Part shown: positions 22,581 through 52,549 of the stretch, piece by piece
How positions within the stretch are numbered: the stretch's first letter is position 1
How the letters are laid out: each line of letters begins with the position of its first letter
From: a virus
Direction: 5' to 3' (one strand)
Length of the DNA: 64,000 bases
Virus record (IMG/VR): IMGVR_UViG_3300029928_000198
Position numbers and translations under genes: made by a program
The notes under the pieces: generated by a model
What the model was told of the DNA's origin: nothing
Database searches by the model: none
The model's input: only the letters and a program-made list of their open reading frames with translations

Positions 22581-22810
22581 CGAGGCTGGAAGGAATCGGG
22601 AATCGGTGCGGTCCAGCATCAACTTTGAACTTTGCATCCGAATGCAAAGTTGTGCAAAGCTGCACATCCCGAGGTCACGAGAAGACGAGGCGGACTGCGA
22701 TTCCCGATCAGAGGGCATCGGAGGTCAAGGAGAATCGCGCTCCGCTTGATTTGCAGGCATACGTCGAATAACGAATTCGTCAATCGACGTCAGAAATCGA
22801 TGCCGGAAGG
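22581..22810 (+). ncRNA. Candidate structured non-coding RNA (or ssDNA structural element)
   Basis: 10-bp IR 22596-22605/22698-22707 encloses a 10-bp hairpin (22628-22651) and GTGCA/TGCAC; second domain GGCATCG/CGATGCC encloses ACGTCGA/TCGACGT; starts about 23 nt after the TATA box. Confidence 0.45.
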
Positions 22811-22870: not shown

Positions 22871-25597
22871 TCAGCCGATTACAGCCCTGAACACGAATAC
22901 GATGACGATCAGGGCGACGATGATGATCATCAGGACCTTGAGGATGTCCTTCATATCGAGTTCCTTGTCCTCGGATTCCTTGTCGGGGTCGGCATGGGTG
23001 GCGATCACGTTGATGATGAAGCTCTCCTCCACCGGCTCCCTGTCGCCGTCGGTGACGATCAGGGTCACGTTGAAGCAGCCGTTTACGGCCGCCGTTCCGA
23101 CGATGTGTCCGTCATCGGAGATGGAAAGCCACGAGGGGGATTTGCCGTAGTCGATAGCGACCTTCGCGCCTGCGGGGTCCACCGTCACGGGGATGTCCAG
23201 CTTGTCTCCGACCCTGACGTACTGCGTCTGGATGCTCTTGACGATGATCGAGTCGTACTTGACCTCGCCGTCTCCGGTGACCTTGGTTCCGTCGATGGTT
23301 CCAGTGCGTCCGACCTGAACCTTGGAGCCTGCATCGTTGGCCATTGCGGTCTCGATGACTCCCTGAACCTTCACGGTCCCTGCGTTCCTGATGGTTCCCT
23401 CTCCGAGGATCTTGCCCTCCGCCTCGACCGTGAGGATGGAGGAGGCGGGAACCACGAGGGATGCGCCGTTCAGATTCAGTTCGCCATCGACTTTCGCGAT
23501 TCCGGTGACGGTGATGGTTCCGTCGGAGGATTCCTCGAAGTCTCCGCTGATGACGACGGAGCCTCTTGCGAAGGCAAGGCCCTTCTCTCCTGCGGTCACA
23601 TCGACGAACTCGACGCCGTTGGCCATGTTGGTGTCGAACCAGACCTTCCCATCGACGGAGCCTCCGGCGGGGACCTTCATGAGCCTGTTGACTGCGACGG
23701 TCTTTCCGGCATCCACGGTTCCGGTGATCTCGGCCTCCTCGACCTTGATGACGATGATCCCGACGGTCTTCTCGCCGGTTGCATCGATGGCCGTGTTGGT
23801 GATCAGATCGAATCCGTTGGCAAGCCTGATGCCGAGCATCTTCTCGGTCCCGTCCACGGCCGCACCGTGGAAGCGGACCTCGGTTTCTCCGGAGGAGATG
23901 ATCTCGGCGTCGAAGGACTGAGCGTAGGTCCTGATGGTTCCGTCGGCGTTGGGTGCGCATCCGAAGACGACTGCGGCATCGGTGAACCTGTTGCCGCTCA
24001 TCGTGAGCTTCTTGATGGACCCGGATGCCTCGGACTCGATGTCGTCGGCAACATCATCGGTAAGGCCTGCACCGCCGCGCTGGGCGATGGCGATGTCGGC
24101 GGAGAACTCGGAATCCACGATCTCGATCTTCGCGTTGTCCACTCCGATGATGTTGATGTCCAATGCGGAGCCGAAAACGGACTTCTCGACGAGAAGCGAC
24201 TTGACGTTGGTAAGGCTGAGTCCGAAGGAGCCGTAGCCCTTGATGTCGCAGGATTTGACGATGAGTTCGACGGGGCGAACGTCGCTGGCCAGATTCTTTC
24301 CGGAGATCGCGGATACGACGGTTCCGTCGCCTTCCATCACGAGGTTCCTCAGGACCACCTTGTAGCGTCCCTCCTCGGAACCGCTAGCATCCAGCTCAAA
24401 GGAGCCGGCGAACCTGTGGCCGTTTCCGTCGATGATGATGTCCTTGTCGATGAGGACGGCATCGGTTCCCTTGACATCGTTCAGGATGCCTACGGTGGAC
24501 TCCTTCTTCGCATCGGCGACTGCCGCTGCAAGGGTAGCGTAGTAGGTGCTGTCGATGACTGCCTCGGCGGAGTTCCTGACGATCTCGGGTGCGTCGCCGA
24601 CGAAGGTTGCCTTGTTGAAAACAAGAGTCTTGTCAACATCGATTATATTGCCGTCGAAGGTCCCCCCGTTGATGGTCAGCTTCGATACGATTGTTTTTGT
24701 GAATTCGTTGTAGTTGTAGACATCCCCGGTGAATGTTCCTCCGTTGATGGTGAGGGTTCCGAGGTCGTGGGATGCACCGCATCCGCAGTTGATGACGGAG
24801 TACTTGCTTTCGGCATCGAAGTTTCCGCCTTCGATGGTGCAGACATTATGGTTCTGGACAGCGGCCTGAGTATAGTTGGTGAATGTTCCGTCCTTGATGA
24901 GGATCTTCGCCCCATCGTCGTTCTTTATGGTGTTGATTCCTCCAGTGAATGTTCCTCCGTTGATGGTGAGGGTAGGCTCGGCATGGTTGACCCCCTCGAC
25001 ATACCCCTTCCTCTGGTTGGATTTCTCTCCGTAGCTGTAGTATCCGTTGTCCAGCAGGCTGGAGAAGTGGCCGTTCTGAGTGAACGTTCCGCCGTCGATG
25101 ATCATGATTCCGTGGTTCAGCACCGCATAGTAGGAATTGCCACCGGAATCGGTGTCGCTCTTGCCGTTCTCCTTGGAGCGGTCGAAGGTTCCGCTCATGA
25201 TATTGACAGTTCCGTTGTTGAACAGAGCAGCCTTCCCATGGGTTATGTTATCGACGGTTCCGTTCTCGCCGGAGTCCTTAACCGTAAGCTCGGCTCCGAA
25301 AAGGACCGTAATCGTATCGGATGATACGTTGGTCAGCTTGTGGCCGTTGAGGTCGATGGTTATCTTCTTGTCCGCAGGGATGGTGACATCCTCGGTCACA
25401 TCGCCTGCCAGCTTGAGCACGGCTCCCTCTCCGGCCGCGCTGATCGCGTCCTTCAGGGTGGGGTACCCTTTCTCATCCACGAAGACCACGTTCTCGGCGA
25501 CGCCTTCCTCCGCATCGGTACTGGGCATGCAGACCAGTACCGCAGAGCAGACCAGCATCGCGATTGCGATTATCGCGAAATTGTTCTTCAGTTCCAT
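22871..25597 (-). CDS. Surface adhesin: beta-helix-like repeats, C-terminal Ig domain and TM anchor
   Basis: Signal peptide MELKNNFAIIAIAMLVC; YPTLKDAI..A...ITIDLNG; INGGTF repeats; PSWLSISDDGHIVGT; C-terminal TM. Confidence 0.85.
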   Translation of the reverse strand: MELKNNFAIIAIAMLVCSAVLVCMPSTDAEEGVAENVVFVDEKGYPTLKDAISAAGEGAVLKLAGDVTEDVTIPADKKITIDLNGHKLTNVSSDTITVLFGAELTVKDSGENGTVDNITHGKAALFNNGTVNIMSGTFDRSKENGKSDTDSGGNSYYAVLNHGIMIIDGGTFTQNGHFSSLLDNGYYSYGEKSNQRKGYVEGVNHAEPTLTINGGTFTGGINTIKNDDGAKILIKDGTFTNYTQAAVQNHNVCTIEGGNFDAESKYSVINCGCGASHDLGTLTINGGTFTGDVYNYNEFTKTIVSKLTINGGTFDGNIIDVDKTLVFNKATFVGDAPEIVRNSAEAVIDSTYYATLAAAVADAKKESTVGILNDVKGTDAVLIDKDIIIDGNGHRFAGSFELDASGSEEGRYKVVLRNLVMEGDGTVVSAISGKNLASDVRPVELIVKSCDIKGYGSFGLSLTNVKSLLVEKSVFGSALDINIIGVDNAKIEIVDSEFSADIAIAQRGGAGLTDDVADDIESEASGSIKKLTMSGNRFTDAAVVFGCAPNADGTIRTYAQSFDAEIISSGETEVRFHGAAVDGTEKMLGIRLANGFDLITNTAIDATGEKTVGIIVIKVEEAEITGTVDAGKTVAVNRLMKVPAGGSVDGKVWFDTNMANGVEFVDVTAGEKGLAFARGSVVISGDFEESSDGTITVTGIAKVDGELNLNGASLVVPASSILTVEAEGKILGEGTIRNAGTVKVQGVIETAMANDAGSKVQVGRTGTIDGTKVTGDGEVKYDSIIVKSIQTQYVRVGDKLDIPVTVDPAGAKVAIDYGKSPSWLSISDDGHIVGTAAVNGCFNVTLIVTDGDREPVEESFIINVIATHADPDKESEDKELDMKDILKVLMIIIVALIVIVFVFRAVIG

Positions 25598-25720
25598 TCT
25601 ACCACCTAGGTTGGTGCGCCATACCATCGGCATGGCATGGGGTAGAGTGCGCCGAGCCTTGTTAAATCGGGGATAAACCGATTTTCAGTGCAATCCATCA
25701 AACCATGATTCCCTGCAAAC

Positions 25721-38317: not shown

Positions 38318-40399
38318 GTGGACATGAACGAGACGGCGGTACGAAACGGTGCTTCGCAGATGGCCGATCTGACATTATTCATCGAACGGGATGCCGGGAT
38401 GCCCGAACGGGGCCTAATAGACCTAACATCCGAGCACGTACGGAACGTGCTTCCTTCGCTGCTGAAGGACAGGACCACCAAGGGCAATATCGTCTGGGGG
38501 ACGGATGCGTACGCGGACCTCGGGTACGGGTGCTCCGACTTCATCTCACCCGAGGCCTTCAGAACAGGAATCCCCGTCCGCCTCAAGGCCAGAACGGAGA
38601 AGACCGACTCCGAGCAGCTTTCCAGAACCCGCGGGAAGGCCGAGGTCTTCACGCCCGGATGGATCTGCAACAGGATGAACAACCACTGCGATTCCGAATG
38701 GTTCGGACGCGAAGACGTCTTCAATGTCGATAACGGCGACGGGACTTGGACCGCCACCGAGGGGAAGATCGCATTCCCGGAGGGGAAGACATGGAAGGAA
38801 TACGTCGATTCCCGCCGCTTGGAGATCACCTGCGGGGAAGCACCGTTCCTCGTTTCAAGGTACGACGCATCCACCGGCGAACCCATCCTTCTAGGCATGC
38901 GCATCGGGATGTTCGACAGGAAGATGAGGGTGGTTGACGAGAACGCGACCTCCGAGGAGGAGTGGATGGAGTGGGCCGTCAGAGCACTCCAGTCCTGCTA
39001 CGGCTACGAGTTCCAAGGAGACAGCCTGCTGATCGCCAGAGTGAACCTTCTGGAATCATTCGTCGATTACTGCATGGACCGCCTCGGGCATGCGCCCGAC
39101 GAGAAGACGGTTTCGCATATTGCCAACATAATCTCGTGGAACCTCTGGCAGATGGACGGGCTTAGGTATTGCCCGCCGTATGCGGTCATGCCCGCGGTTC
39201 AGTTCGACCTTTCGATGTTCGGTCCGGATTCGGGAACGGCCTCGAACGAGAAGGTCCCGTTCCATTCTAAGATATACGATTGGAGACGCGACAATTCGGT
39301 CGCTTTCATCAAATGCAGAAAGAGGGGGAAAATGGACAGGAAGCTATTCGACTATGTGATTGGAAATCCGCCGTATCAGGAGACTCAAAAGGATACTAGC
39401 GATATACCGATTTACAATTTCTTTATGGACGCAGCCTATGATGTAGGAGATCATGTAATTCTAATCACGCCGGGACGCTTCCTTTTTGGTGCTGGAAAAA
39501 CCCCGAAAAGCTGGAACCAAAAAATGCTATCAGACTCGCACTTGAAAGTACTAAAATATGCATCTGATTCAAAATCCGTATTTCCAGCGAATGATATTAA
39601 AGGGGGCGTCGCAATAACATACCGCGACTCACACAGAACTATTGGCCCCATAGGTATCTTCACGGCTTTTCCCGAACTCAACTCGATTTGTAAAAAAGTA
39701 ACTTCCAGCAATGGCTTCAAATCCTTTTCCGATTTGATTTATGCTCCTGAAAGTTACAAATTCTCAAATAAAATGCTGGAAGATTACCCCGAGATATTGT
39801 ACAAAGACGATGGCAACGGAAACAACTTGGGAATATTGAGCGAAGGACATGACAACGACCTTGTAACTAACATTTTTGATAAACTTGAGGGAATTGTTTT
39901 CTTTAGTTCTGTTATCGACTCGAATCATTCCTATGTTCGTATAATCGGAAGGAAAAACAATACAAGAACGAGTATGTTTATCGACAGGGACTATGTAATC
40001 GGTCCAAATAATTTTCCATCATACAAGGTCATCTTACCTAAATCCAATGGTTCTGGCGCAATCGGAGAAGTGCTTAGTACACCCCTGATCGGGGAACCCC
40101 TGATCGGACATACTCAAACATTCATAAGCATAGGTAATTTTGCTACCAGATTAGAAGCAGAAAATGCAATAAAGTATATCAAGTCAAAATTCGCAAGAGT
40201 GATGCTGGGAATAAAAAAAGTCACTCAGGACAATAAGAAAGATGTGTGGGTTTTTGTTCCCGTTCAGGACTTTACAAACAACTCCGACATAGATTGGTCC
40301 GACAGCATCCGTGGCATCGACCTCCAGCTCTACCGCAAGTACAACCTTACCCCGGATGAGGTAAAATTCATCGAATCCCACGTGAAGGAGATGGATTGA
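38318..40399 (+). CDS. N6-adenine DNA methyltransferase of a restriction-modification system (Eco57I-methylase-like domain)
   Basis: EVFTP, LEITCGEAPFL, NLWQMDGL, VIGNPPYQE; AT-rich C-terminal specificity region. Confidence 0.85.
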   Translation: MDMNETAVRNGASQMADLTLFIERDAGMPERGLIDLTSEHVRNVLPSLLKDRTTKGNIVWGTDAYADLGYGCSDFISPEAFRTGIPVRLKARTEKTDSEQLSRTRGKAEVFTPGWICNRMNNHCDSEWFGREDVFNVDNGDGTWTATEGKIAFPEGKTWKEYVDSRRLEITCGEAPFLVSRYDASTGEPILLGMRIGMFDRKMRVVDENATSEEEWMEWAVRALQSCYGYEFQGDSLLIARVNLLESFVDYCMDRLGHAPDEKTVSHIANIISWNLWQMDGLRYCPPYAVMPAVQFDLSMFGPDSGTASNEKVPFHSKIYDWRRDNSVAFIKCRKRGKMDRKLFDYVIGNPPYQETQKDTSDIPIYNFFMDAAYDVGDHVILITPGRFLFGAGKTPKSWNQKMLSDSHLKVLKYASDSKSVFPANDIKGGVAITYRDSHRTIGPIGIFTAFPELNSICKKVTSSNGFKSFSDLIYAPESYKFSNKMLEDYPEILYKDDGNGNNLGILSEGHDNDLVTNIFDKLEGIVFFSSVIDSNHSYVRIIGRKNNTRTSMFIDRDYVIGPNNFPSYKVILPKSNGSGAIGEVLSTPLIGEPLIGHTQTFISIGNFATRLEAENAIKYIKSKFARVMLGIKKVTQDNKKDVWVFVPVQDFTNNSDIDWSDSIRGIDLQLYRKYNLTPDEVKFIESHVKEMD

Positions 40400-40400
40400 C

Positions 40401-43400
40401 ATGCCCGCGATCCCCATCGATCCTGTATGCGTACGCCATCCGATGATCTACGCCTATACGACGCCCGGAGTCGCCAACAACGACGGATGGGTCAAGATAG
40501 GCTACACCGACCGCGACCCCGACCAGCGCATCAGAGAGCAGACGCACACCGCAGGCATCGTCGCCAAGAGGGAATGGTCCAGCACAGCCATCTACGATTC
40601 CCAATGGAAGCCTTTCAGGGACACCGACTTCCACAGATACCTCCGCTGCAAGGGCGTGGAGCAGCGCGCGGGGACCGAATGGTTCAGGATGGCTCCAGAT
40701 GTCGCCAAATAGTGTCTGAGACACTTCAAGGACAAGGACGGATGCGCCACGGGCGACGGCCCCGCGCCGTACACGCTACGCAAGGAGCAGCAGGCGGCGG
40801 TGGATGCCGCCGAGAGGTACTTCGAATCCAACGAGCATGGCCAGTTCCTCTGGAATGCCAAGCCCCGCTTCGGGAAGACCTTGGCATCCTACGACCTATG
40901 CAAGACCCTCGATGCCAAGAAGGTCCTCATAGTCACCAACCGTCCGGCGATAGCCGATTCATGGTACAGCGACTACGAGAAGTTCCTCGGCCCGTCATCC
41001 GGATACACGTTCGTATCCACCATCAACGGAATCAGAGGCTGCAGATATGTCAGGGACACGGCCGATTTTCCGAACCCCGATTCCAAGATCATCAACTTCG
41101 TCAGCCTTCAGGACCTCAAAGGTTCGCTCCACTTCGGCGGGAATTACGACAAGCTCCGGTACATCAAGGATACGGCATGGGACCTCCTAATCATCGACGA
41201 GGCCCACGAGGGCGTGGACACGTTCAAGACCGACGTCGCCTTCGATCGGATAGACCGCAGATGGACCCTACATCTTTCCGGTACGCCCTTCAAGGCCATC
41301 GCCAGCGACAAGTTCGGTAAGGACGCGGTCTTCAACTGGACCTACGCGGACGAGCAGGAGGCGAAGAGGGAATGGGAAGAGAACTCCGAGAGCTGCAACC
41401 CGTACGGGAATCTTCCGGAACTAACCATGTTCACCTACCGCATGTCGGACATGATAGCCGACAAGGTCGGAGCCGGCATACCGATCGACGGAGAGAACAC
41501 GGACTACGCCTTCGACCTCAACGAGTTCTTCGCCACCGACGGGAAGGGAAGCTTCATCCACGATTCCGATGTGGACAGATTCCTCGATGCGCTGACGACT
41601 CAGGACAGATACCCCTATTCCACGGAGGAACTCAGGGACAAGATGGCCCATACGCTATGGCTGATGGACCGCGTGGATGGGGCTAAGAGGCTGGCCTCGA
41701 AGCTTAGGAACCACCCCGTGTTCGGACAATATACGATCGTCGAAGCGGTCGGCGACTTCAACGACGACGGAAGCAGGGCCAAGAGCGCACTGGAGAAGGT
41801 CCGCAAGGCTATCAGGAACAGCAACAGGACCATAACCCTCACCGTGGGCCAGCTCACCACCGGAGTCACCGTCCCCGAATGGACGGGCGTTCTGATGCTT
41901 TCCAACGTGAAGAGCGCATCCCTGTACATGCAGACCGCATTCAGGGCGCAGACGCCTTGGGAATTCCAAACGAAGGACGGCGTATGCAGGAAGGAGAACG
42001 CCTATGTCTTCGACTTCGACCCGGCAAGGACGCTGGACATCTACGAGCAGTTCGCAAACGACCTGTACAGCGACACCTCCGCAGGAAGAGGGGATTCCGG
42101 CAAGAGGAAGGAGAACGTCCGCAAGCTGCTGAACTTCTTCCCCGTCATAGGAGAGGACGAGGACGGGGCGATGATCGAGCTGGATGCCGAGAAGGTCCTT
42201 TCCATCCCCCGTGCGCTCCGCTCCAAGCAGGTGGTCCGCAGGGGATTCATATGCGACTTCCTCTTCCAGAACGTCACCAACGTCTTCCATGCGTCTCCGA
42301 AGGTATGGGACATCATCGGGATGATGCCCGCAGTGAGCAGGGACGAGGCCCTTAACCTAGATCGCACGGATGCCATGTCGGTCGATCTGGACGAGAACGG
42401 GGAAGTCGTCGTCGATAAGGCGGGCGTGATAGGCCTTTCCAAGGAGCTTTTCGGCGACAAGATATACGAGACCGATGCCGACGACCTTTTCCGGATACTC
42501 GAAGAGAAGGCCGACGGCCCCAAGTCCGCCGAAGACGTCAGGCTTGAGAAGATAATGGATTGCTTCCATCGGGACGTCACCGCCCCGATGATCGACATAG
42601 CCTCGGAGAAGTTCGAGAAGGATCTGAACAGGAGGACCAAGGGCCATCTGGAGAAATACATCGACCTGCAAGCCGAGAACCGCTTCCGCAAGGCCCTGAA
42701 GGAGCATTCCATCAACGAGCGCACGCTCAATTCAGAGATGGAGAAGGAGATCGACTCCGCCCGCGGCGATTCCGCCAAGGAGGAGGTCCGGCGCAGATAC
42801 GACGAACTCATCAAGGAGAACAATCGCAACTTCACCGATGCCGCCAACGAGATATGGAACTCGGCGGCGGAGGATGCCGGGAACTGCATCGTGGAGAAGG
42901 TGGAGACCGACAGGAAGGAGAAGACCAAGAAGGAGGTCAGCGAAGGCATCAGGAACCACCTCAGGGGCTTCAGCAGGACGATACCGTCCTTCCTGATGGC
43001 CTACGGCTCCGAAGCGGACATAACGCTGGCCAACATCGATACGATCGTCCCTCCGGATGTCTTCAAGGAGGTGGCATCCATCTCGGTGGAGGACTTCCGC
43101 CTGCTGCGCGACGGAGGAGAGATGATCGGGGATGACGGGATGTCGGAGCATTTCGACGGGCATCTCTTCGACGAAACGGTGTTCAACGACTCCGTGAAGG
43201 AGTTCATGGCCCTCAGGATACGTCTGGCCGATTACTTCGCCAACGATGCGGAGGACATCTTCGACTACATCCCTCCGCAGAGGAACAACCAGATATTCAC
43301 CCCCAAGCACGTGGTGAAGCAGATGGTCGATATGCTGGAGAAGGAGAATCCCGGGTGCTTCGACGACGATTCCGCCACATTCGCGGACCTGTACATGAAA

Positions 43401-43685
43401 TCGGGCCTGTATGTGGCGGAGATAGTCCGCAGGCTGTACAACAGCCCCGGGATCGCAAGGAAGCACCCTGACAGAGAGGAAAGGCTGAGGCATATATTCG
43501 CCCATCAGGTGTTCGGTCTGGCTCCTTCGGAGATCATCCATAGGATCGTGCTGTCGTATGTTCTAGGGTTCGCGGAGAACGGGAAGAGGATGGAGCACAA
43601 CCTCCGGCGGGGGGACCTGCTGGCCATGGGATCGGGGGAAGAACTCAGGAAGAATCTGATCGAGATGTTCCCCGCATTGAAGTAA
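40401..43685 (+). CDS. GIY-YIG nuclease-SF2 helicase-methylase-like restriction subunit with an in-frame TAG at 40710-40712
   Basis: IYAY...VKIGYT...EWF (GIY-YIG/T5orf172-like); frame stays open after the TAG (CLRHFKDK...YTLRKEQQAAV) into AKPRFGKT, IIDEAH, QIFTP. Confidence 0.8.
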
Positions 43686-43787: not shown

Positions 43788-44627
43788 TCAACTGCGGTAA
43801 TCGAAGACGGTCAAGACATCATACCCGTTGTACTTCTGCATATAGCCTGCAAGCGTTCCATCCTTGAGGAGGTAGTAGACGTTCCCGTTCGAATCCTCGA
43901 AACCATAGCCTTGAACCTGTCCGCTGGAGAGCTTGATGTACATGTCGTTACAGTCCTTCATGCTCTGCAAGAAAGGATTGTGGGCGGCCATGCTTTCCTT
44001 GACGCTCATGTAGCCCGGCATCGGTACTGGATCGGGTACTACGATCTCTTCTCCGCCGTTAATGTGTATCGTCGGACGCTTGATCGTCACTCCTGAACCC
44101 CAGTCCTCATTCGGTTCCTTGACCGTGGTGTTCGAGTTCTTGTTCACCAGCCTTCCGTCGTCGAATGTTATCTGGGCTTCAGTCCAGTACTCTGTTCCGT
44201 CATCGAGCTTGATGCCGCCGGAGAGATGATAGATTCCATCGAGGGCTTTGGCGTTGACCTTGTCTATCTTGCCGTTATCGCTCCTCCCATCATCTCTATC
44301 GCCATAGTCGGTGAGCACTCCCGAATAGCATACCAGCACTATGACGAGAGCAAGTACGACGCAAACGGCGAATCCCTTCTTCATCGTCGCAGTCAATTCA
44401 TTCATCGGTACGGAGTTGCTGGTCGCGACCTCAGGAGCCGGCTTCAGTGAAGCGGCGGCTCCGAACTTCCTTCCGCATTTATCGCAGAATTTGGCGTCGG
44501 AAAGATTCTCGGTACCGCAGATGGGACAGGTTATCTTCTCCTCGACGGGATCTAGACGCGCACCGCATTCGCGACACATCGTGGCATCGTCGCGGTTGTC
44601 CCTCCCGCATTTCGGACAATTCTTCAT
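43788..44627 (-). CDS. Double-Zn-ribbon membrane protein, paralog 2
   Basis: CPKC..CREC..CPIC..CDKC, one TM, extracellular domain. Confidence 0.85.
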   Translation of the reverse strand: MKNCPKCGRDNRDDATMCRECGARLDPVEEKITCPICGTENLSDAKFCDKCGRKFGAAASLKPAPEVATSNSVPMNELTATMKKGFAVCVVLALVIVLVCYSGVLTDYGDRDDGRSDNGKIDKVNAKALDGIYHLSGGIKLDDGTEYWTEAQITFDDGRLVNKNSNTTVKEPNEDWGSGVTIKRPTIHINGGEEIVVPDPVPMPGYMSVKESMAAHNPFLQSMKDCNDMYIKLSSGQVQGYGFEDSNGNVYYLLKDGTLAGYMQKYNGYDVLTVFDYRS

Positions 44628-44676
44628 TTATCCACCTTATTCTAAGGATGTTGAACTTTCGATTTAAGCGCTGCGA
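44614..44676. repeat. 63-bp exact repeat (promoter, RBS and start of the DZR paralogs)
   Basis: Identical to 45593-45655. Confidence 0.85.
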
Positions 44677-44700
44677 CATGAATGCTGGTCATTAAGTAAA

Positions 44701-44737
44701 ACAAAAAACGAAAGGAAAACATCCCTGATGGGATGTA
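44701..44737 (-). terminator. Hairpin plus T-tract terminator
   Basis: ACATCCC-ATCA-GGGATGT followed on the minus strand by TTTCCTTTCGTTTTTTGT. Confidence 0.6.
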
Positions 44738-44754
44738 AGGTGTTTTAGAAGCAA

Positions 44755-45606
44755 TCAGCCCTTGCGGTCATAAATTGTTGTGATTTTCACGTTCTCGTAA
44801 CTGAATGTGTAAGCCAGAAGCCTTCCGTCCTTGTTTACATAGTACTTGTTTCCATCCGAATCCTGGAATCCATACGCTTCCAGAGTGGAATAGTCATTGA
44901 TCTTGACCAGCTTGTCACCGCAGTGACTCATTCTGGAAAGGAACGGATTGTGATCGATGATGCTATCCATTGTAGAAACATGACCGGGATTCGGAGGCTC
45001 GGAGATCACATATTCCGTCCCATCGTGCATCGTGACGATGGGACGTGTGATGTCTATTCCGGATTCCCATTGTCCGTTAGGCTCCTTCACAGATGTGCTT
45101 ATATTCTTCTCTACGAGCTTGCCGTTGTCGAACTCGATTATTGCATTGGACCAGTATTCTGTTCCATCCTCAGCTCTGACACCGCCTGAAAGATAAAATG
45201 ATCCATCCAATGGCTTTGCATTCACGGTATCAATCAGACCAGAGCCGCCCCCATTCGAATCATCATCAGACCCGTTGGACAACATGCCTGAACCGAGTAT
45301 GGCTGCCAAGGCCAGAATAACAACCGCCACGACAGCAATCGCAACCCCGTTTTTACTTTCCTTACCGGCGTTGGGGGCCGAATCACGCTTCTGTTGTTGA
45401 GTTTCGTTCTTTTCCGTGACTGCGACATTCGGAGTGTTGAACGATTTACCGCATTTATCACAGAACTTCGATCCAGCGACATTTTCAGTTCCGCAAGATG
45501 AACAGATTAGCCGCTTCTCCGATGGAGATTCAAATTTGATTCCGCATTCGCGACACATGATTGCATCGTCGCGGTTCTCCCCTCCACATTTGGGACAATT
45601 CTTCAT
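44755..45606 (-). CDS. Double-Zn-ribbon membrane protein, paralog 1
   Basis: Same architecture; shares IDxVNAK.LDG..LSGG...DGTEYW with paralog 2. Confidence 0.85.
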   Translation of the reverse strand: MKNCPKCGGENRDDAIMCRECGIKFESPSEKRLICSSCGTENVAGSKFCDKCGKSFNTPNVAVTEKNETQQQKRDSAPNAGKESKNGVAIAVVAVVILALAAILGSGMLSNGSDDDSNGGGSGLIDTVNAKPLDGSFYLSGGVRAEDGTEYWSNAIIEFDNGKLVEKNISTSVKEPNGQWESGIDITRPIVTMHDGTEYVISEPPNPGHVSTMDSIIDHNPFLSRMSHCGDKLVKINDYSTLEAYGFQDSDGNKYYVNKDGRLLAYTFSYENVKITTIYDRKG

Positions 45607-45687
45607 TTATCCACCTTATTCTAAGGATGTTGAACTTTCGATTTAAGCGCTGCGATATAAGAGGTTTGGAAGAAGTTTGTCGAACGG

Positions 45688-47610
45688 TCACAGCCAGCCG
45701 AACGGCTTCAGATCGCTCCAAGTGAAGGTTCCCAGTATCAGCGACGATACGGCTTGAGGGATGATTATTCCGATCAAGAGAACAATCACGCCAGCAGATA
45801 ACAAAATGGAGGCCCCAGTAATTCTTCCTAGGAGGATGAGGATTATTCCGGCCTCTATGAGGATGATGGCCCAGAGATAAGACGCATTGAATACCTTCGG
45901 CATTTGAGGGGGCGTCGGATCATCATCCTCGGTCCCATCGTGCATCTTTATCGTCTGACGAGTGATGTCAATCGATTGGACTTCTTTTCCATCGGAAATC
46001 ATTTTCTTCAGTTCCAAGGAATAGTTCGCATCCAGTGGATAGTGCTTAGCAGCTGCGGTCATGGAACCATCCCAATCAGAAAATGAATCCACAGAATCCC
46101 ATATCACAATCGATCCCTTTCCACTGACATTATTGGTACCGATTTCCAGATGCTGATCCGTCGTGTAAAGATAGGGCGTGAAGACAGCATTCTCTATCCA
46201 TAGATTTCCGTTCAGATACAGGTCTCCATAACATATCAGCCCCTGCCCCTCTTCGTTGTAATTAAACTGGATGTTCTCAAGATCAGATTGATTGTTGACA
46301 TAGTAGTCTTTGAGCTGAGCCATCATGTTGATTGTCTGATTCACCTTCTCCACTGTTGACAATGTCTGACCAATCTTATTCACAGGAAGAGCTGAAGGAT
46401 GAACGTATGGAGATGATTCCTCTACCTCATCGAATATATTCCATGTTGCTTTCCCAGTACTGTAGGTATTGTCAGCGATTCTGTTGAATGACTGAACCAT
46501 GTCATCCCAGAAATATGTCAGATTATGAGCTTCTGACAACAGAGCAATCTTTTTCGTCTGAGATCCAGCAGTAACCACTACATCCAGCGAATTGCTTGTC
46601 CATTCCTTACCATCTGATGATTCTATACGAACCGAAGAATTGGATTCCGAAGATACTATATAAAAATCAGAATCTTTTTTCAGGACTAGCACTCCGTTTA
46701 CATGCTCAGACGAATCGCCTATCACCGAAATGATGGGTCCAACGTATGATGCTCCTGCTGGTAATTTGTAAATGCCCTTGGGCAATGAGGAAACATTATT
46801 TTCACCCACATTCAAGGTAAAATTAGCACCAGTGTCCATATTTTGTATCGTCTTCGATGCAGAGGTATCGCAGAGATAGATGACTTTCGAAATGGAAGAG
46901 TAATTGTCTCCCTCATTGGAGGGGTCAATATACACTAGAACATCACGGGTTGCAGTAATCTTTTGAGCCAATGCAAAAGCCAACATATCTGTTGAACTTC
47001 CATTTGTTGCCGTGATTGTCTTTCCATTCCATTCGTACGACATCGACAATTTGTCCGCATAACTCAGGTCAGAATCCCAATAATTGGATTGCTCCAAAAC
47101 ATGGGACATTGCATAGCCTAGAGCATTTGCCCATGTTGTCAGATAATTGTTCTCTGCTGCAAGGAAACCTGTTCCAGCCAGCATCTCCTTACAGTATTCG
47201 TCATACTTGCCGATATTCTCCTTGGTCCACATATCGTAGACCTGATACTCCATAGCCTGATCCCAATAGTTCTGGGTGAAGAATATCATGTCCGCATCGG
47301 AAGGCATTACTGTACATGCCAAGTTCATGATGGAGTTGGTGGCTAGCTCAACCTTGCTTATCTCCGCTTCTGCTAAAGCCTGTTTCAAACTGTCAACCAT
47401 TACAGCACTATCATCATCCGACGGAGCATCTATCACATAATGCGTGAACAGCGCACCTATGGCAAAACCGAGAGCCAATCCGACGATGAAGCCTCCCATG
47501 GGGGTCACGCCTTCGGACTCGTCGTCCTCGTCCAGAACCACCACGGGCGCGAATGCCATGGCCAGCACCAGCATTGAGCAGGCGATGGCCGCAATCTGCG
47601 TCTTCCTCAT
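45688..47610 (-). CDS. Putative pleolipovirus VP4/VP5-like membrane-fusion spike (640 aa)
   Basis: Start MRKTQ at ATGA overlap; signal peptide, then Gly-rich hydrophobic GGFIVGLALGFAIGALF, helical region, beta-rich region, C-terminal TM. Confidence 0.6.
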   Translation of the reverse strand: MRKTQIAAIACSMLVLAMAFAPVVVLDEDDESEGVTPMGGFIVGLALGFAIGALFTHYVIDAPSDDDSAVMVDSLKQALAEAEISKVELATNSIMNLACTVMPSDADMIFFTQNYWDQAMEYQVYDMWTKENIGKYDEYCKEMLAGTGFLAAENNYLTTWANALGYAMSHVLEQSNYWDSDLSYADKLSMSYEWNGKTITATNGSSTDMLAFALAQKITATRDVLVYIDPSNEGDNYSSISKVIYLCDTSASKTIQNMDTGANFTLNVGENNVSSLPKGIYKLPAGASYVGPIISVIGDSSEHVNGVLVLKKDSDFYIVSSESNSSVRIESSDGKEWTSNSLDVVVTAGSQTKKIALLSEAHNLTYFWDDMVQSFNRIADNTYSTGKATWNIFDEVEESSPYVHPSALPVNKIGQTLSTVEKVNQTINMMAQLKDYYVNNQSDLENIQFNYNEEGQGLICYGDLYLNGNLWIENAVFTPYLYTTDQHLEIGTNNVSGKGSIVIWDSVDSFSDWDGSMTAAAKHYPLDANYSLELKKMISDGKEVQSIDITRQTIKMHDGTEDDDPTPPQMPKVFNASYLWAIILIEAGIILILLGRITGASILLSAGVIVLLIGIIIPQAVSSLILGTFTWSDLKPFGWL

Positions 47611-50600
47611 AGCACGTACCTCCTTATCAGGATAAGAGCGGCGATTCCGATGAGCAGCGCGCACGCCGCGTACCTTATGACATCGTTGGAATCCTCGGAT
47701 TCCTCCGGAACCCATACCGCGTACAGATCGAGCTTGCCCTCGGGCGAAACCTCGTCGCCGGCCTTGTAGGTGGTTCCCTTGAGGTCGGGGGACGTGTTCC
47801 AATACTTGCAGGTCATGCCCTCCCTGACGAACTTGCACTCTTGGATGGTGTACTTCTTGGAACCCGTCTGGGCATCCATCGTCCCCTGACCGCCGTTGGC
47901 GTGATAGACGATGGAGGGTCCTTCGGACGAGGACAGATCGACGTTCACGGTGAACTCCCTCTGAGAAGGAGTCCCGTCGGTGGAGGTCCATGTCCAGACC
48001 ATCGAAACCGAATACTTGCCCTTCGAGGAGTACTCGTGAGTGAACTCGGCCGATGCGGCGTCCCTGCTGAGGTTGCTGCCGTCGCCCCAATCTACCATCA
48101 GGCGCATGGACGACTTGTTGGGTACGATGTCCGTAAGCGTGACCACAAGCCCGTTCGCCTTGTATTTGGCGGATGCCTCGATCTTCACGTCGTCCGGGTC
48201 TGACTGGGCGTAGACGGTGGCCTTCCACGTCTCCACGGGGGTGGAGCCGTTGCTAAGGAGGAACGTGACCTCCTTCCCGACGAGTCCGATCTCGTTGCAG
48301 GTTCCGGTGACGACGTAGATGTACGTCTTGTCGTCCGTAAGGGTGCTCTTGTTCAGCTTGAAGCAGTCCAGAGTCCTTCCGTCGCATGTCGCCTTCAGCG
48401 TCAGGTTGCTGTATAAGGATTTGATGGCCTTGGACTGATACATGGAGCCGATGTTGATGATGTCCGAGGCATCGACCGAGGGTTCGTCCAGAGTCTCCAG
48501 AATCACGAATGCCTCGGCGGTTCCGACATTGTTCTTGGCCGTGCACTTGACGGTGTATGCGCCGATGACCTTGAAGGTGTGAACCACCTCCACTTTGGTT
48601 GTCGGCTCCGTCTCCCCGTCTCCGAAATCCCATATCAGGGTATCGTAGTTCGCTACTCCGAAGGCGGAGAAGTAGTAGGTGTTGGGTTCGGCGGGGTTGT
48701 CGTCGGATGCCCCCGCATATCTGGTCGCCTTGATGGAAGAGATGGTGGGCTTCTCCTTGTACTCCCCGGGTGGTTCTGCGCGGAGCGTTATTGTCTTGAT
48801 TGCAGAGGATGTAATGGTTGAATCGACAACCAGATCTATCGTGTATATCCCCTCCTCCTTGCAGACTATGTAGAATCCCTTGTTGCCCGACTTTCCGGCA
48901 TCGTACTGGTTCGGCTTGGCGGTCTCATTGTTGAACTTGACCGTGTAGGACACGATGTACGCATCGTTGGGCCTCAGAGTGAGATTGACAGTCCACTTCT
49001 CGCCGATGATGGCTTTCGCATCTATGGGTTCAAGCACCACCGTGGACATCTCGATGATGAAATCCTGCGTTGCGGAATTGTAGCCGTTCTTCGTGACCTT
49101 TATCTGGACAGTGTAGGTCGCCGGGATCAGGTCTTTCAATGTTCCATTGATATTGTTCCCGATTCCACGGAGGCATTCCGTCGGGTCTTTGACTATCTCG
49201 ACCTTGAAGTCGGTAATATTCTCAAGAGTGATCGAATCCCTGACATACGGCGTGTAGTTTATCGTCAGACCGTTCACAGCAGCGCGCCACGTGTATTCTG
49301 GATCCAACACCAGCGACGGAACGTCCCAATGCGCGTAGAGCGTGATGTCTCCGCTGGGGGCGTATTCGGCTCCTGCGCTGCCGATGAAGTTTCCGCCTTC
49401 CTTGGCGTCGTACCATCCGGAGAACTTGGAGCTGTCCTTGATTGCAACAGGCAAACGGATGGTGCCAGTGGTAGTCTCCGTCTTGGTGCTCTGACCGTCT
49501 ACCGAACCTCCGTTGGCGTCGAAGGTGATAGTGGATTCCCTGACGAGGGTGAGGGTTCCGCTATCTGTACCATATGCGCCATAACTGTCCACCCACTGCA
49601 ATTCCGTTTCTCCCGCCTTGGGAATCAGAACGTAGTTGTGGTCGGTGGTCTTGCCGGCAATCGTACCAACACCATCGGGCATGTTTACCAGATAGGTTTC
49701 TATGTTCGGGTTGCCAGTGATGAAGCGACCTTTCAGAATCAACAGATTCACGTCAGAGTCCAGACTCAATGACTCGTTTCCATTGATGTGATCCTTCAGC
49801 TCTATTGTTTTGACGTTGATGTCGGCATCGGATACCGAGATGGTTTTGGATGCAGACACGTTGGAGCCGTCCTTGGATTTGGCGGTGATTTCTATATCTC
49901 CTTCCGATACACCGATGATTACAAGATCCCCGTTCCCATCGACATAATATCCGCCATGACCTTGGCTGGAGATGGTCCAAGAAACTTCTTTGAAAGCAGC
50001 ATCTGATGGCGTCACATCCGCATGAACAGTAATCGTGGAACCCATCTTCACGGAATCTTCGCTGCGTATCGATATGCTTGATGCGAATTTTCCGCCATCC
50101 GTGCAAATCAGAGTGCCTGTCTTCTCGGTAACAACCTTTGTTGATTTGTTGTTGTACTGGATCTTAGCCGTTACCACTCCGGCCTTGTTCAGTTTCCCCG
50201 AGATGCTTCCATCATCGGTAATCGAAAGGCCGAAGCCTTCGGTGACGGATAGAGCGGTAATTTCCACACTGAGCATCGATGTGCTTTCAAAATTCACTTG
50301 AGAACCAGGTTTCACAAAAAATGTCTGATATGCCAAATTGCTTAATTGGGCATCTACGCTTGAAACAGGGTCTTCAATCGTACCGTAATTCACCTTCCCA
50401 TAGATCGGAAGATCGGATCCATAAATCGTCGTAGAGACCAGATTTACTGTCTTACCATCCAGAGTTATCGTGGAATTCGAGTGCAGATTGCCGTATATCG
50501 ACGAATCCTCGGGACTGACGGCGAAATCCGTTCCGCCAGCGAAGGCGATGCCGTTCATCGACTTCCCCTCGAACGTTATCAGGACCTCCCCGCCAGCCAC

Positions 50601-50813
50601 GACGTAGTAGTCCGCCCCGTCCGTCAGCTCGGACCAGTCGGCGTACAGGCCCCCGTAGGGTTCCGTACCCGATCCGTACGACGCGGCGTCGGAGTCGCAG
50701 TCCCCCGAGCCGACCAGAAGGAACGCAGATGCCAGCACGAAGGCGAACAGAGCCATCGCCGGGATCGCGACCCTCGGATGCGGATCGGAAGGACGTTTTC
50801 TTTCTCTTTCCAT
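47607..50813 (-). CDS. Surface adhesin: shared N-domain, Ig group-2 domain, B-repeats, PKD domains, TM anchor
   Basis: Start moved to MERERK; WDFGDG, VDWGDG, ITFDANGG..GWY; C-terminal TM. Confidence 0.9.
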   Translation of the reverse strand: MERERKRPSDPHPRVAIPAMALFAFVLASAFLLVGSGDCDSDAASYGSGTEPYGGLYADWSELTDGADYYVVAGGEVLITFEGKSMNGIAFAGGTDFAVSPEDSSIYGNLHSNSTITLDGKTVNLVSTTIYGSDLPIYGKVNYGTIEDPVSSVDAQLSNLAYQTFFVKPGSQVNFESTSMLSVEITALSVTEGFGLSITDDGSISGKLNKAGVVTAKIQYNNKSTKVVTEKTGTLICTDGGKFASSISIRSEDSVKMGSTITVHADVTPSDAAFKEVSWTISSQGHGGYYVDGNGDLVIIGVSEGDIEITAKSKDGSNVSASKTISVSDADINVKTIELKDHINGNESLSLDSDVNLLILKGRFITGNPNIETYLVNMPDGVGTIAGKTTDHNYVLIPKAGETELQWVDSYGAYGTDSGTLTLVRESTITFDANGGSVDGQSTKTETTTGTIRLPVAIKDSSKFSGWYDAKEGGNFIGSAGAEYAPSGDITLYAHWDVPSLVLDPEYTWRAAVNGLTINYTPYVRDSITLENITDFKVEIVKDPTECLRGIGNNINGTLKDLIPATYTVQIKVTKNGYNSATQDFIIEMSTVVLEPIDAKAIIGEKWTVNLTLRPNDAYIVSYTVKFNNETAKPNQYDAGKSGNKGFYIVCKEEGIYTIDLVVDSTITSSAIKTITLRAEPPGEYKEKPTISSIKATRYAGASDDNPAEPNTYYFSAFGVANYDTLIWDFGDGETEPTTKVEVVHTFKVIGAYTVKCTAKNNVGTAEAFVILETLDEPSVDASDIINIGSMYQSKAIKSLYSNLTLKATCDGRTLDCFKLNKSTLTDDKTYIYVVTGTCNEIGLVGKEVTFLLSNGSTPVETWKATVYAQSDPDDVKIEASAKYKANGLVVTLTDIVPNKSSMRLMVDWGDGSNLSRDAASAEFTHEYSSKGKYSVSMVWTWTSTDGTPSQREFTVNVDLSSSEGPSIVYHANGGQGTMDAQTGSKKYTIQECKFVREGMTCKYWNTSPDLKGTTYKAGDEVSPEGKLDLYAVWVPEESEDSNDVIRYAACALLIGIAALILIRRYVL

Positions 50814-50980
50814 TTTCTTTCCTCCGAATCGGGGCGGCGGAGCCTGATTCGGAGATTCGATTGGACTCCGCACCCCGTTCATCCGCCGATGATAGGTGGG
50901 CGGACGGTCGGGTAAATCGCATCAGGAACGACTTAATGGGGTCAAAATCTTGGAATCCGCCTGATATTCGGAAGAGGAAC

Positions 50981-51894: not shown

Positions 51895-51966
51895 AAAAGG
51901 CCTGCGGACTGTTATAATTAGAGCGATTGCGATTACATCCCTAGCCTCAGGCTAGGAGAACGAACG

Positions 51967-52341
51967 ATGACGAACACCACCGCATCTTACGGAAGATCGG
52001 CCAGCAACGCCGAGCTGAAAGCGAAGAAGGTCGGTCTTTCTTGGATGATAGCCCGCTTCGTGGAGGATTACGACCCATACGGATTCATCAACGAGGTTGT
52101 GGACTGCGACATAGATGGGGATGAGCGCGAAGAGGTGGAGCAGGGCATCGCCAAGTACGCGGCGGAAATGCTCCAGCTGATGAACCGGCGCGAATACGAC
52201 TATCTCGAAGAGATCCTGCACGAGTTCGACGATGAAGACAACGATCCCAGAACAGCGGATAATCTCAGGCATATACTTGCCGAACTCGAAGAGATCAGGA
52301 TGCTGGACGAAGAGGGTAGAACCCTTTATGCCGACCCCTGA
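51967..52341 (+). CDS. Acidic helical protein with F..DYDPY motif
   Basis: IARFVEDYDPYGF; resembles helical domains of conjugative-element polyvalent proteins (from memory). Confidence 0.65.
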   Translation: MTNTTASYGRSASNAELKAKKVGLSWMIARFVEDYDPYGFINEVVDCDIDGDEREEVEQGIAKYAAEMLQLMNRREYDYLEEILHEFDDEDNDPRTADNLRHILAELEEIRMLDEEGRTLYADP

Positions 52342-52549
52342 TACCGTAAAGAGCGATTGCATCGCATTCTTCTCGGATGCCTATGCCGTACCCCGTAACG
52401 AGATGAAAGGACTATTCGACAGGACGGGGCTTTCATCCCTCATAGAAAGCTGCTATCTCGTCGTGATAAGGTATTCGCGCAAGGAATACGACGGAAGAGA
52501 ATCGAACTACATTTCTGTACAGACCGCGTGCGGACATAGGGATTGTTGA
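52328..52549 (+). CDS. Degenerate DUF3791-like protein
   Basis: CIAFFSDAYAVP..E...LFDRTGLSSLIESCY. Confidence 0.45.
   Translation: MPTPDTVKSDCIAFFSDAYAVPRNEMKGLFDRTGLSSLIESCYLVVIRYSRKEYDGRESNYISVQTACGHRDC

What the first reader, a model, noticed from the sequence alone, without database searches (positions are those of the whole stretch)
45688..47610. Candidate pleolipovirus-type membrane fusogen
Seen: signal peptide, then an acidic spacer and a Gly-rich hydrophobic segment at the mature N-terminus (TPMGGFIVGLALGFAIGALF), a helical region with NNYLTTWAN, a beta-rich half ending DGKEVQSIDIT, and a C-terminal TM; 640 aa. Known: haloarchaeal VP4/VP5 spikes have this order, with an N-terminal fusion peptide. 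The residue-level resemblance is from memory, not a search. The gene is translationally coupled behind a large adhesin.
Basis: partly seen in the sequence, partly recalled or inferred. Interest (0 to 1): 0.8.

Follow-up and report, generated by a model that had tools for sequence, protein, structure and literature searches.

The report
Pleolipovirus-type spike/fusogen gene, methanogen element

Summary
The gene lies on the minus strand at 45688-47610. It encodes 640 aa with the described order of parts, and its start overlaps the stop of a Flg_new/PKD adhesin gene (ATGA).

Pfam, PHROGs, PDB sequences and profile-profile comparison with haloarchaeal VP5 give nothing at sequence level. Fold-level evidence is consistent:
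- The best BFVD hit is HRPV-11 VP4 (E 3e-6).

P0001 is also homologous (BLASTP 2e-27) to R9T7P5 of Methanomassiliicoccus intestinalis, which Baquero et al. 2024 list as a VP4-like fusogen. It is therefore a new member of a known kind. Fusion activity itself is untested.

Three features go beyond the published picture:
- The adhesin-then-fusogen pairing recurs in all six other gene contexts I fetched.
- The membrane anchor has 2-3 helices where VP5 has one.
- The gene sits in a dark element, at least 74 kb of it seen here (pleolipoviruses are 7-17 kb). A sister copy has a 98%-identical backbone, and that identity collapses inside the first ~160 codons of this gene.

The parts
45688..47610 (-). 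VP4/VP5-like spike (putative fusogen) gene, 640 aa (P0001)
   Evidence: Translation. Homologues. AlphaFold model with pLDDT 75.9. VP5 is the top structural hit. BLASTP 2e-27 to the published VP4-like fusogen R9T7P5.
47533..47610 (-). Signal-peptide-like segment (residues 1-26)
   Evidence: The sequence has a basic N-terminus followed by a hydrophobic core. The first 40 residues are 100% identical in allele P0004. Cleavage was not tested.
47506..47532 (-). Acidic spacer (residues 27-35, DEDDESEGV), ending in small residues; candidate signal-peptidase site
   Evidence: The close family (A1) consensus is ExDESEA; in distant members the spacer stays acidic but varies in length, about 7-60 aa. The weak hhalign match places it against the residues just before the mature N-terminus of HRPV-2 VP5 (not significant).
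47434..47505 (-). Gly-rich hydrophobic segment (residues 36-59), putative fusion peptide
   Evidence: Two or more N-terminal hydrophobic windows occur in 131 of 143 family members by a crude overlapping-window count, which overcounts. The sequence itself is poorly conserved (30% in A1, 19% in A2). Topology argument: a second membrane span here would put the VP5-like ectodomain in the cytoplasm, so the segment cannot span. In VP5 the first 20 mature residues are hydrophobic and shielded (PMC6381117).
46411..47409 (-). N-terminal ectodomain (residues 68-400): helix bundle with a 44-residue helix, an inserted beta subdomain (188-358) and a return helix (364-396)
45946..46398 (-). C-terminal ectodomain (residues 405-555): helix plus beta-sandwich
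45691..45945 (-). Pro-rich linker (556-575) and a membrane anchor of 2-3 helices (576-626) with a conserved C-terminal tail
   Evidence: Model and hydropathy. This is the best conserved block among close homologues (69% identity). VP5 has a single TM helix here.
47607..50882 (-). Upstream TM-anchored adhesin (Flg_new x2, PKD x2, Big_2); the start is at 50882 or, as gene callers chose on sister contigs, about 50813
   Evidence: Pfam hits. ATGA overlap. The same arrangement (an upstream protein with a hydrophobic C-terminus overlapping or abutting the spike start) occurs in L005, L006, L010, L011 and L015.
47619..47623 (-). GGAGG Shine-Dalgarno inside the adhesin's last codons
   Evidence: A GGAGG or GGGAGG sits at a similar distance in L005, L006 and L010.
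43788..45606 (-). Two paralogous proteins (279 and 283 aa), each with a double zinc ribbon and one TM helix, directly downstream
   Evidence: Pfam DZR and Zn_Ribbon hits. The two are 44% identical with one TM each. The same pair follows the spike in L001, L002 and L014. Function unknown.
44600..47400 (.). Low-GC variable block whose upstream edge lies inside the spike gene
   Evidence: GC is 41-48% here (one 200-nt bin reaches 53%), against 58-59% at 47400-48400. Sister contig L014 is 98.4% identical from 57610 down to 47124. Beyond that it has no match or about 69% identity across the rest of the spike.

Best explanation
The gene encodes the envelope spike of a pleolipovirus-like mobile element of Methanomassiliicoccales. 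It belongs to the family already described as 'VP4-like fusogens'.

Proposed working, with shown and inferred steps marked:
1. The signal peptide directs export. It is probably cut after the acidic spacer, which would leave the Gly-rich hydrophobic segment at the mature N-terminus. This is inferred by analogy with HRPV-2/-6 VP5 and from the topology argument.
2. The ectodomain adopts the two-domain VP5 architecture: a helix bundle with an inserted beta subdomain, then a beta-sandwich domain. This is shown at the level of predicted fold.
3. The protein is held in the membrane by 2-3 C-terminal helices (predicted).
4. The co-translated upstream Flg_new/PKD adhesin, itself TM-anchored, supplies or extends host attachment. 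This is inferred from the conserved gene coupling only.
5. On contact with the host, the helix bundle extends and the hydrophobic N-terminus inserts into the target membrane, driving fusion. This is inferred from the VP5 model of El Omari et al. 2019 and was not tested.
6. Exchange of the ectodomain-coding part by recombination between otherwise 98%-identical elements changes specificity. The exchange is shown; its purpose is inferred.
For: Fold:
- VP5 of HRPV-2 and HRPV-6 fill ranks 1-3, colinear over both domains.
- HRPV-11 VP4 is the top BFVD hit (E 3.4e-6, prob 1.00).

Homology to the published family:
- P0104 matches P0001 at E 5.5e-20.
- the 90% cluster of P0104 contains R9T7P5 / WP_020449497.1 of Ca. 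M. intestinalis Issoire-Mx1.
- direct BLASTP gives 2e-27, 27% identity over 365 aa.
- R9T7P5 and R9T8T5 are among the structural models deposited for VP4-like fusogens of Methanomassiliicoccales viruses in PMC10919331.
- the motifs of R9T8T5 (FT.SYW..QAE......W and VVFTPY) match the family consensus.

Context in relatives:
- L006: a rolling-circle Rep, adhesins, the spike, two ORFs, a P-loop ATPase and an integrase on an 18.8-kb contig.
- L010 and L015: integrase-bearing proviruses next to cellular genes. HRPV-2 has the same order of spike, two ORFs and an NTPase.

Architecture:
- VP5 has a signal peptide, a hydrophobic first 20 mature residues and a C-terminal TM. P0001 has the same order.
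Against: - There is no detectable sequence similarity to haloarchaeal VP4/VP5. P0001 has no PF26255 hit at E<=1. Among 69 family members, PF26255 was not among the 25 families listed. The family profile does not find the VP5 chains in PDB sequences. hhalign against a VP5-family profile gives probability 11% and 3%.
- Plain Foldseek against PDB ranks VP5 only 9th, 28th and 39th, at E about 0.01-0.035.
- The hydrophobic 'fusion peptide' is the least conserved part of the protein, which is unlike many viral fusion peptides.
- The anchor has 2-3 helices, not one.
- In this window the spike is not followed by the genes that follow it in the small proviruses. No capsid-less virion has been seen for this element.
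- No fusion assay exists for any member of the methanogen family.
Confidence: 0.72

Rival explanations
1. The protein and its fusion role are the same, but the vehicle is not a virus. A large plasmid-like element of about 74 kb or more would bud or hijack membrane vesicles and use the adhesin-plus-fusogen pair to deliver its DNA, or to fuse cells. This would resemble the plasmid vesicles of the Halorubrum plasmid pR1SE, or fusexin-carrying integrated elements.
For: - The window has no housekeeping gene and no recognisable capsid, portal, terminase, Rep or integrase among 58 ORFs scanned.
- The same kind of content continues at least 10 kb beyond the window start.
- The longest contigs carrying close alleles are 84-111 kb for six of them, far above the 7-17 kb of pleolipoviruses.
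- The element carries several TM-anchored adhesins and defence cargo.
Against: - Pleolipovirus virions are themselves genome-filled vesicles without a capsid, so this distinction may be semantic.
- All relatives I examined that have readable ends are small integrase-bearing proviruses.
- Completeness, circularity and possible integration of the large element could not be checked.
- A possible counterpart of the gene that follows the spike in small proviruses exists at 21208-22101, but the match is weak (hhalign probability 39%).
Confidence: 0.18
2. The protein is a surface spike or scaffold that only presents or anchors the upstream adhesin. It would serve attachment or host-range functions without catalysing membrane fusion itself.
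For: - The tight, conserved coupling to TM-anchored adhesins.
- The weakly conserved hydrophobic N-terminal segment.
- A shared fold does not prove a shared function.
Against: - VP5 is shown to mediate fusion and is the only solved protein with this fold.
- The N-terminal hydrophobic segment, placed where it cannot span the membrane, is kept in most family members. An anchoring scaffold has no evident need for it.
Confidence: 0.08
3. It is an ordinary cellular membrane protein of the archaeon with a flagellin-like helix-bundle-plus-beta-insert shape, unrelated to mobile elements.
For: The top plain Foldseek rows are flagellins, FlgL and FliD, at E 1e-3 to 1e-2.
Against: - Every context with readable neighbours is a mobile element.
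- The gene's GC content (45%) is foreign to its surroundings (59%).
Confidence: 0.02

Closest known systems
VP4-like fusogens of Methanomassiliicoccales pleomorphic (pro)viruses (vir422-vir447 of Medvedeva et al. 2023 as used by Baquero et al. 2024, PMC10919331; e.g. UniProt R9T7P5 and R9T8T5 of Ca. Methanomassiliicoccus intestinalis Issoire-Mx1)
   Same: - Sequence homology: BLASTP 2e-27 to R9T7P5, with shared family motifs.
- Similar length, 610-641 aa.
- The same order of helical and beta regions and of signal peptide, ectodomain and multi-helix C-terminal anchor.
- An upstream Flg_new adhesin.
   Different: - Only about 20-27% identical.
- The published ones sit in small integrase-bearing proviruses: about 12 kb in L010 and about 21 kb in L015, by my reading. 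This one sits in a dark element of at least 74 kb, away from the ORFs and ATPase that normally follow the spike.
- I could not read Medvedeva et al. 2023 itself, so I do not know whether large elements or the adhesin coupling are described there.
HRPV-2 / HRPV-6 VP5 (HRPV-1 VP4) spike-fusion protein of haloarchaeal Pleolipoviridae, PDB 6QGI, 6QGL, 6J7V; Pfam PF26255
   Same: - Two-domain ectodomain: an N-domain helix bundle containing a helix of more than 40 residues plus a beta subdomain, and a beta-rich C-domain. Each domain is the best PDB match of the corresponding part of the model.
- A signal peptide followed by a hydrophobic mature N-terminus, and a C-terminal membrane anchor.
- In relatives, the spike is followed by two ORFs and a P-loop NTPase.
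   Different: - No detectable sequence similarity.
- About 100 residues longer, with a larger beta insert.
- 2-3 anchor helices instead of one.
- An acidic spacer between the signal peptide and the hydrophobic segment.
- A dedicated, translationally coupled adhesin upstream, whereas VP5 is thought to bind the host through its own N2 subdomain.
Two-spike pleomorphic viruses (His2; AvPV1 of Archaeoglobus, 'Thalassapleoviridae')
   Same: Two envelope protein genes in tandem in the morphogenetic module.
   Different: There the second gene is a divergent copy of the spike. Here the partner is an unrelated repeat adhesin (Flg_new/PKD/Big_2).
Plasmid vesicles of Halorubrum lacusprofundi pR1SE (about 50 kb), cited from my own knowledge of Erdmann et al. 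2017 and not checked here
   Same: A large capsid-less element that would need membrane-enclosed transfer and fusion with a recipient.
   Different: No homology was tested, and pR1SE is not known to me to carry a VP4-like protein. This is an analogy of lifestyle only.

Membership tests
VP4-like fusogens of Methanomassiliicoccales pleomorphic viruses (Medvedeva 2023 / Baquero 2024 set) | Significant sequence similarity to a listed member | tested here: met
   BLASTP of P0001 against P0307 (R9T7P5, supplementary file 54 of PMC10919331) gives E 2e-27, 27% identity over 365 aa. phmmer gives E 5.5e-20 to its cluster representative.
VP4-like fusogens of Methanomassiliicoccales pleomorphic viruses (Medvedeva 2023 / Baquero 2024 set) | Location in a small integrase-bearing pleomorphic provirus that has the conserved post-spike ORFs and ATPase | tested here: not met
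   In the window the spike is followed by two zinc-ribbon/TM genes and a restriction-modification system. No integrase or Rep was found among 58 ORFs. The possible counterpart at 18617-22101 is only weakly supported. Relatives L006, L010, L011 and L015 do meet this feature.
Pleolipoviridae VP4/VP5 spike-fusion protein (Pfam PF26255; PDB 6QGI/6QGL) | Match to the family's sequence model | tested here: not met
   P0001 has no PF26255 hit at E<=1. PF26255 is not among the 25 families listed for 69 members. hhalign of the family against a VP5 alignment gives probability 11% and 3%. The family profile against PDB sequences gives no VP5 hit.
Pleolipoviridae VP4/VP5 spike-fusion protein (Pfam PF26255; PDB 6QGI/6QGL) | N-terminal domain fold (four-helix bundle with one helix of more than 40 residues, plus a beta subdomain) | tested here: met
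Pleolipoviridae VP4/VP5 spike-fusion protein (Pfam PF26255; PDB 6QGI/6QGL) | C-terminal domain fold | tested here: met
Pleolipoviridae VP4/VP5 spike-fusion protein (Pfam PF26255; PDB 6QGI/6QGL) | Cleaved signal peptide exposing a hydrophobic mature N-terminus of about 20 residues | not testable with these tools
   The sequence shows the right order, and the family keeps it. The cleavage site needs N-terminal sequencing or mass spectrometry.
Pleolipoviridae VP4/VP5 spike-fusion protein (Pfam PF26255; PDB 6QGI/6QGL) | Single C-terminal TM anchor | tested here: not met
   The model and hydropathy show 2-3 hydrophobic helices. Multiple C-terminal hydrophobic segments also appear in R9T8T5.
Pleolipoviridae VP4/VP5 spike-fusion protein (Pfam PF26255; PDB 6QGI/6QGL) | Membrane fusion activity on virions | not testable with these tools
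   This needs lipid-mixing assays such as the R18 assay used for HRPV-6.
Archaeal fusexin Fsx1 / HAP2-type class II fusogens | Three-domain beta-rich class II fold | tested here: inconclusive
   No Fsx1 or HAP2 chain appeared in any of the structural searches. Flavivirus and alphavirus E proteins matched only weakly, and in the second look only through TM helices. The helix-bundle N-domain is unlike class II. I did not consider this family further.

The most novel reading that the evidence does not exclude
The spike belongs to a capsid-less, membrane-enveloped element about five- to tenfold larger than any described pleolipovirus. At least 74 kb of it was seen here, and contigs reach 111 kb.

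The element would enter cells with a modular two-gene cassette: a repeat adhesin translationally coupled to a VP5-fold fusogen. The fusogen's ectodomain, together with the downstream zinc-ribbon/TM genes and a defence island, would be exchanged between near-identical backbones by recombination inside the spike gene.

That would make it a 'giant pleomorphic virus' or a vesicle-transmitted megaplasmid of gut methanogens.
Probability: 0.3. Interest if true: 0.75.

Novelty: new member of a known kind. Interest (0 to 1): 0.45.

Why it matters
VP4/VP5 is the only structurally defined membrane fusion protein of prokaryotic viruses. The methanogen branch of the family is known only from sequence mining.

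This copy adds three testable points:
- **A conserved adhesin-fusogen gene pair.** It suggests that binding and fusion are split between two proteins in gut-methanogen elements.
- **A natural allele swap.** The breakpoint lies inside the spike gene, in a backbone that is otherwise 98% identical. This gives a ready-made comparison for mapping host-range determinants.
- **A very large, uncharacterised host element.** The same protein occurs in an element far larger than a pleolipovirus. If that element is transmitted in membrane vesicles, it would stretch the size range of capsid-less enveloped archaeal replicons.

Methanomassiliicoccales are methane producers in animal and human guts, so knowing how their mobile elements enter cells has practical interest.

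Tried and rejected
- **Sequence libraries.** Pfam, PHROGs and PDB sequence searches with the single protein gave nothing. The family profile against PDB sequences gave only a TM-like match to pilin.
- **Profile-profile comparison.** hhalign of the family against a 23-sequence haloarchaeal VP5 alignment gave probability 11% (N-terminal hydrophobic region) and 3% (end of the C-domain). Neither is significant, although both fall at structurally equivalent places.
- **Foldseek and Atlas.** Plain Foldseek against PDB gave no hit at E<=0.001. The flagellin-type rows were rejected after the second look. The ESM Atlas gave nothing usable by features or by shape.
- **Other collections.** The search for related loci in GTDB genomes and in IMG/VR with the close alignment gave pattern hits only, none confirmed. 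The broad alignment was too divergent for the tool.
- **Unavailable data.** No whole genome is held for the window and the metagenome records are not held.
- **Complex prediction.** The spike with the last 192 residues of the adhesin gave no verdict.
- **Search for the rest of the morphogenetic module.** I compared the post-spike ORFs and ATPase of small proviruses with window ORFs at 18617-22101. Only 21208-22101 gave a weak match (hhalign probability 39%, E 3e-4). The ATPase aligned only around Walker B. This is inconclusive.
- **Literature.** Medvedeva et al. 2023 could not be read.
Full report
**What is there.**
The finding's coordinates hold a 640-codon ORF on the minus strand (45688-47610). 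It begins with a basic and hydrophobic signal-like segment (residues 1-26). An acidic spacer (DEDDESEG) follows, and then a Gly-rich hydrophobic stretch (36-59).

The AlphaFold2 model was built on 17 homologues (mean pLDDT 75.9). Along the chain it predicts:
- long helices at 68-177, one of them 44 residues;
- a beta region at 188-358;
- a return helix at 364-396 and a further helix at 419-439;
- a beta-sandwich at 449-554;
- a Pro-rich linker;
- two to three hydrophobic helices at 576-626.

The start codon overlaps the stop of the upstream gene (ATGA), and a GGAGG lies 8 nt before it. The upstream protein (1068-1091 aa, depending on the start chosen) carries Flg_new, PKD and Big_2 domains and a C-terminal TM helix.

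**Is it a real, conserved gene?**
Yes. The word-indexed search found 17 proteins, 16 of them 40-100% identical over the full length. The exhaustive HMMER search found 178 clusters at 50% identity, 140 of them at E<=1e-10. Most are about 600-700 aa and match over nearly the whole length; a minority are fragments. No Pfam, PHROGs or PDB sequence match exists.

**The VP5 test.**
Plain Foldseek against PDB was not significant: VP5 entries ranked 9, 28 and 39 at E about 0.01-0.035, and the TM-scores were low because the two domains sit at a different angle.

The other structural searches pointed to VP5:
- Among predicted viral structures, the best match of the full model is VP4 of HRPV-11 (E 3.4e-6, probability 1.00).

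**Sequence level.**
Similarity to haloarchaeal VP4/VP5 is not detectable here. The haloarchaeal proteins all carry Pfam PF26255, and P0001 does not. hhalign between a 143- or 69-member family alignment and a 23-member VP5 alignment gave probabilities of 11% and 3%.

The two weak alignments do fall at equivalent places. One pairs the acidic spacer and hydrophobic segment with the mature N-terminus of VP5. The other pairs residues 518-553 with VP5 430-466, in register with the structural alignment. I count neither as evidence.

**Link to the literature.**
El Omari et al. 2019 (PMC6381117) describe VP5 as a V-shaped two-domain protein with these features:
- a four-helix N1 bundle, one helix longer than 40 residues;
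- a variable N2 beta subdomain;
- a hydrophobic first 20 residues of the mature protein, shielded by the C-domain;
- a C-terminal TM.
They show that it mediates fusion.

Baquero et al. 2024 (PMC10919331) state that proviruses encoding VP4-like fusogens were found in Methanomassiliicoccales (their reference 12, Medvedeva et al. 2023, which I could not read). They use 22 such proteins (vir422-447).

Their supplementary models include UniProt R9T8T5 and R9T7P5 of Ca. Methanomassiliicoccus intestinalis Issoire-Mx1. R9T7P5 is in the 90% cluster of P0104, one of my phmmer hits (E 5.5e-20). Direct BLASTP against P0001 gives E 2e-27, 27% identity over 365 residues. The window protein is thus a divergent member of a family already published as VP4-like fusogens.

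**Context in relatives.**
- In L006 (an 18.8-kb contig) a 23%-identical member lies in a small element with this gene order: a rolling-circle Rep (PF23343 above threshold), He_PIG and Flg_new adhesins, the spike, two ORFs, a 311-aa P-loop ATPase and a tyrosine integrase.
- L010 and L015 are integrase-bearing proviruses next to cellular genes.
- L011 shows the same post-spike ORFs.
- The order of spike, two ORFs and NTPase is the order in HRPV-2.
- In each of the six other contexts (L005, L006, L010, L011, L015 and the P0019 contig) the gene just upstream overlaps or abuts the spike start. Where its C-terminus could be read (L005, L006, L010, L011) it is hydrophobic, and where Pfam data exist (L006, L010, L015) it is a Flg_new adhesin. 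A GGAGG-type motif sits inside its last codons in L005, L006 and L010.

This conserved pairing suggests that attachment and fusion are shared between two co-made proteins. A complex prediction gave no verdict, so this rests on gene order alone.

**Context in the window.**
Here the surroundings differ. Downstream lie two paralogous zinc-ribbon/TM genes and, on the other strand, an Eco57I-type methylase with a ResIII helicase-nuclease. Another 1531-aa Flg_new adhesin follows.

Among 58 further ORFs only 14 Pfam families hit: DNA methylases (one with an intein), NYN, an RNase T-like exonuclease, GNAT and others. None is a housekeeping gene, a capsid, terminase, Rep or integrase.

The same kind of content, with more Flg_new/PKD adhesins, continues at least 10 kb beyond the window start. 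The longest contigs carrying close alleles are 84-111 kb for six of them. The spike therefore sits in a large dark element, at least 74 kb of which was seen here, not in a 7-17-kb pleolipovirus.

These are a TM protein, two further ORFs and a P-loop protein with a weak C-terminal HTH match. Only 21208-22101 shows a weak match to the gene that follows the spike in small proviruses (hhalign probability 39%). The rest is inconclusive.

**A swapped cassette.**
The spike gene has 45% GC, against about 59% for the element. The drop occurs about 200 nt into the gene.

A sister contig carrying allele P0004 (61% identical protein) is 98.4% identical in DNA to the window from 57610 down to 47124. That stretch runs through the adhesin gene and the first ~160 codons of the spike. 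Beyond it, the rest of the spike has no match or about 69% identity.

Identity of 97-99% resumes only in the zinc-ribbon segments and at 38177-37601, and the defence genes in between are different: a Dcm-type methylase with an EcoRII-C gene instead of Eco57I/ResIII. Recombination therefore exchanges the spike ectodomain within an otherwise near-identical backbone. That is expected of a surface protein that sets host range or is a target of host defence.

**Mechanism and its status.**
Shown:
- gene structure, coupling and family;
- predicted two-domain VP5-like fold;
- homology to the published methanogen VP4-like set;
- allele exchange.

Inferred:
- cleavage after the acidic spacer;
- a non-spanning hydrophobic N-terminus acting as fusion peptide;
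- extension of the helix bundle on triggering, following the VP5 model;
- cooperation with the adhesin.

The topology supports the fusion-peptide reading. A second true membrane span at 36-59 would place the VP5-like ectodomain in the cytoplasm, so the segment must be peripheral or shielded. Against it, this segment is the least conserved part of the protein.

**Verdict.**
The protein belongs to a known, recently described class, so it is a new member of a known kind. Interest comes from the setting: the conserved adhesin coupling, the intragenic recombination breakpoint and the unusually large element.

Noticed in passing
window 1-64000 and L012 (at least 10 kb beyond the window start): The whole window looks like one large dark mobile element. 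Among 58 scanned ORFs there are no housekeeping genes and no recognisable capsid, terminase, Rep or integrase. It carries many DNA methylases (one split by an intein at 9108-11396) and several TM-anchored Flg_new/PKD/He_PIG adhesins. Further adhesins and a transglutaminase-core protein lie beyond the window start. The longest contigs with close spike alleles reach 84-111 kb for six of them.
   Followed up: partly
window 47124-47400 (inside the spike gene), compared with L014: A sharp GC break (58-59% down to 41-46%) coincides with the end of 98.4% DNA identity to a sister contig. The spike ectodomain, the C-terminal parts of the two zinc-ribbon/TM genes and the defence island (38.2-43.7 kb) are replaced between otherwise near-identical backbones.
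   Followed up: yes
window 43788-44627 and 44755-45606 (minus strand): Two paralogous proteins (44% identical) each have an N-terminal double zinc ribbon, one TM helix and a variable C-terminal domain. They always follow this spike allele group. The gene after the spike in L005 also starts with a zinc ribbon. Their function is unknown; a superinfection or partner role is conceivable.
   Followed up: partly
BFVD entry A0A2H4RBS7 (Sulfolobus ellipsoid virus 1, '3 transmembrane domain protein', 641 aa): This is the second-best Foldseek hit of the full model (E 2.8e-5, prob 0.99, 526 columns), directly after HRPV-11 VP4. It hints that an enveloped crenarchaeal virus may carry a VP4/VP5-like protein with a similar multi-helix anchor. 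No paper in the library links SEV1 to pleolipovirus fusogens.
   Followed up: partly
window 18617-22718 (minus strand): A small 3-TM protein, a 297-aa TM protein, a 313-aa protein and a 432-aa P-loop protein with a weak C-terminal HTH match follow a 920-aa He_PIG adhesin (22871-25633). The 297-aa protein weakly resembles the gene that follows the spike in small proviruses (hhalign probability 39%). The ATPases of the small proviruses also carry a C-terminal HTH. This may be a displaced morphogenetic module.
   Followed up: partly
window 51952-52362 (minus strand): A 136-aa ORF with two predicted TM helices lies upstream of the adhesin-spike pair. By size and position it could be the counterpart of the small VP3-like membrane protein of pleolipoviruses. 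No similarity test was run on it.
   Followed up: no
window 38318-43685 (plus strand) against L014 13692-17669: The defence cargo between the conserved flanks differs between sister elements. The window has an Eco57I-type methylase, a T5orf172 gene and a ResIII helicase-nuclease. L014 has a 526-aa ORF, a Dcm-type methylase and an EcoRII-C endonuclease.
   Followed up: partly
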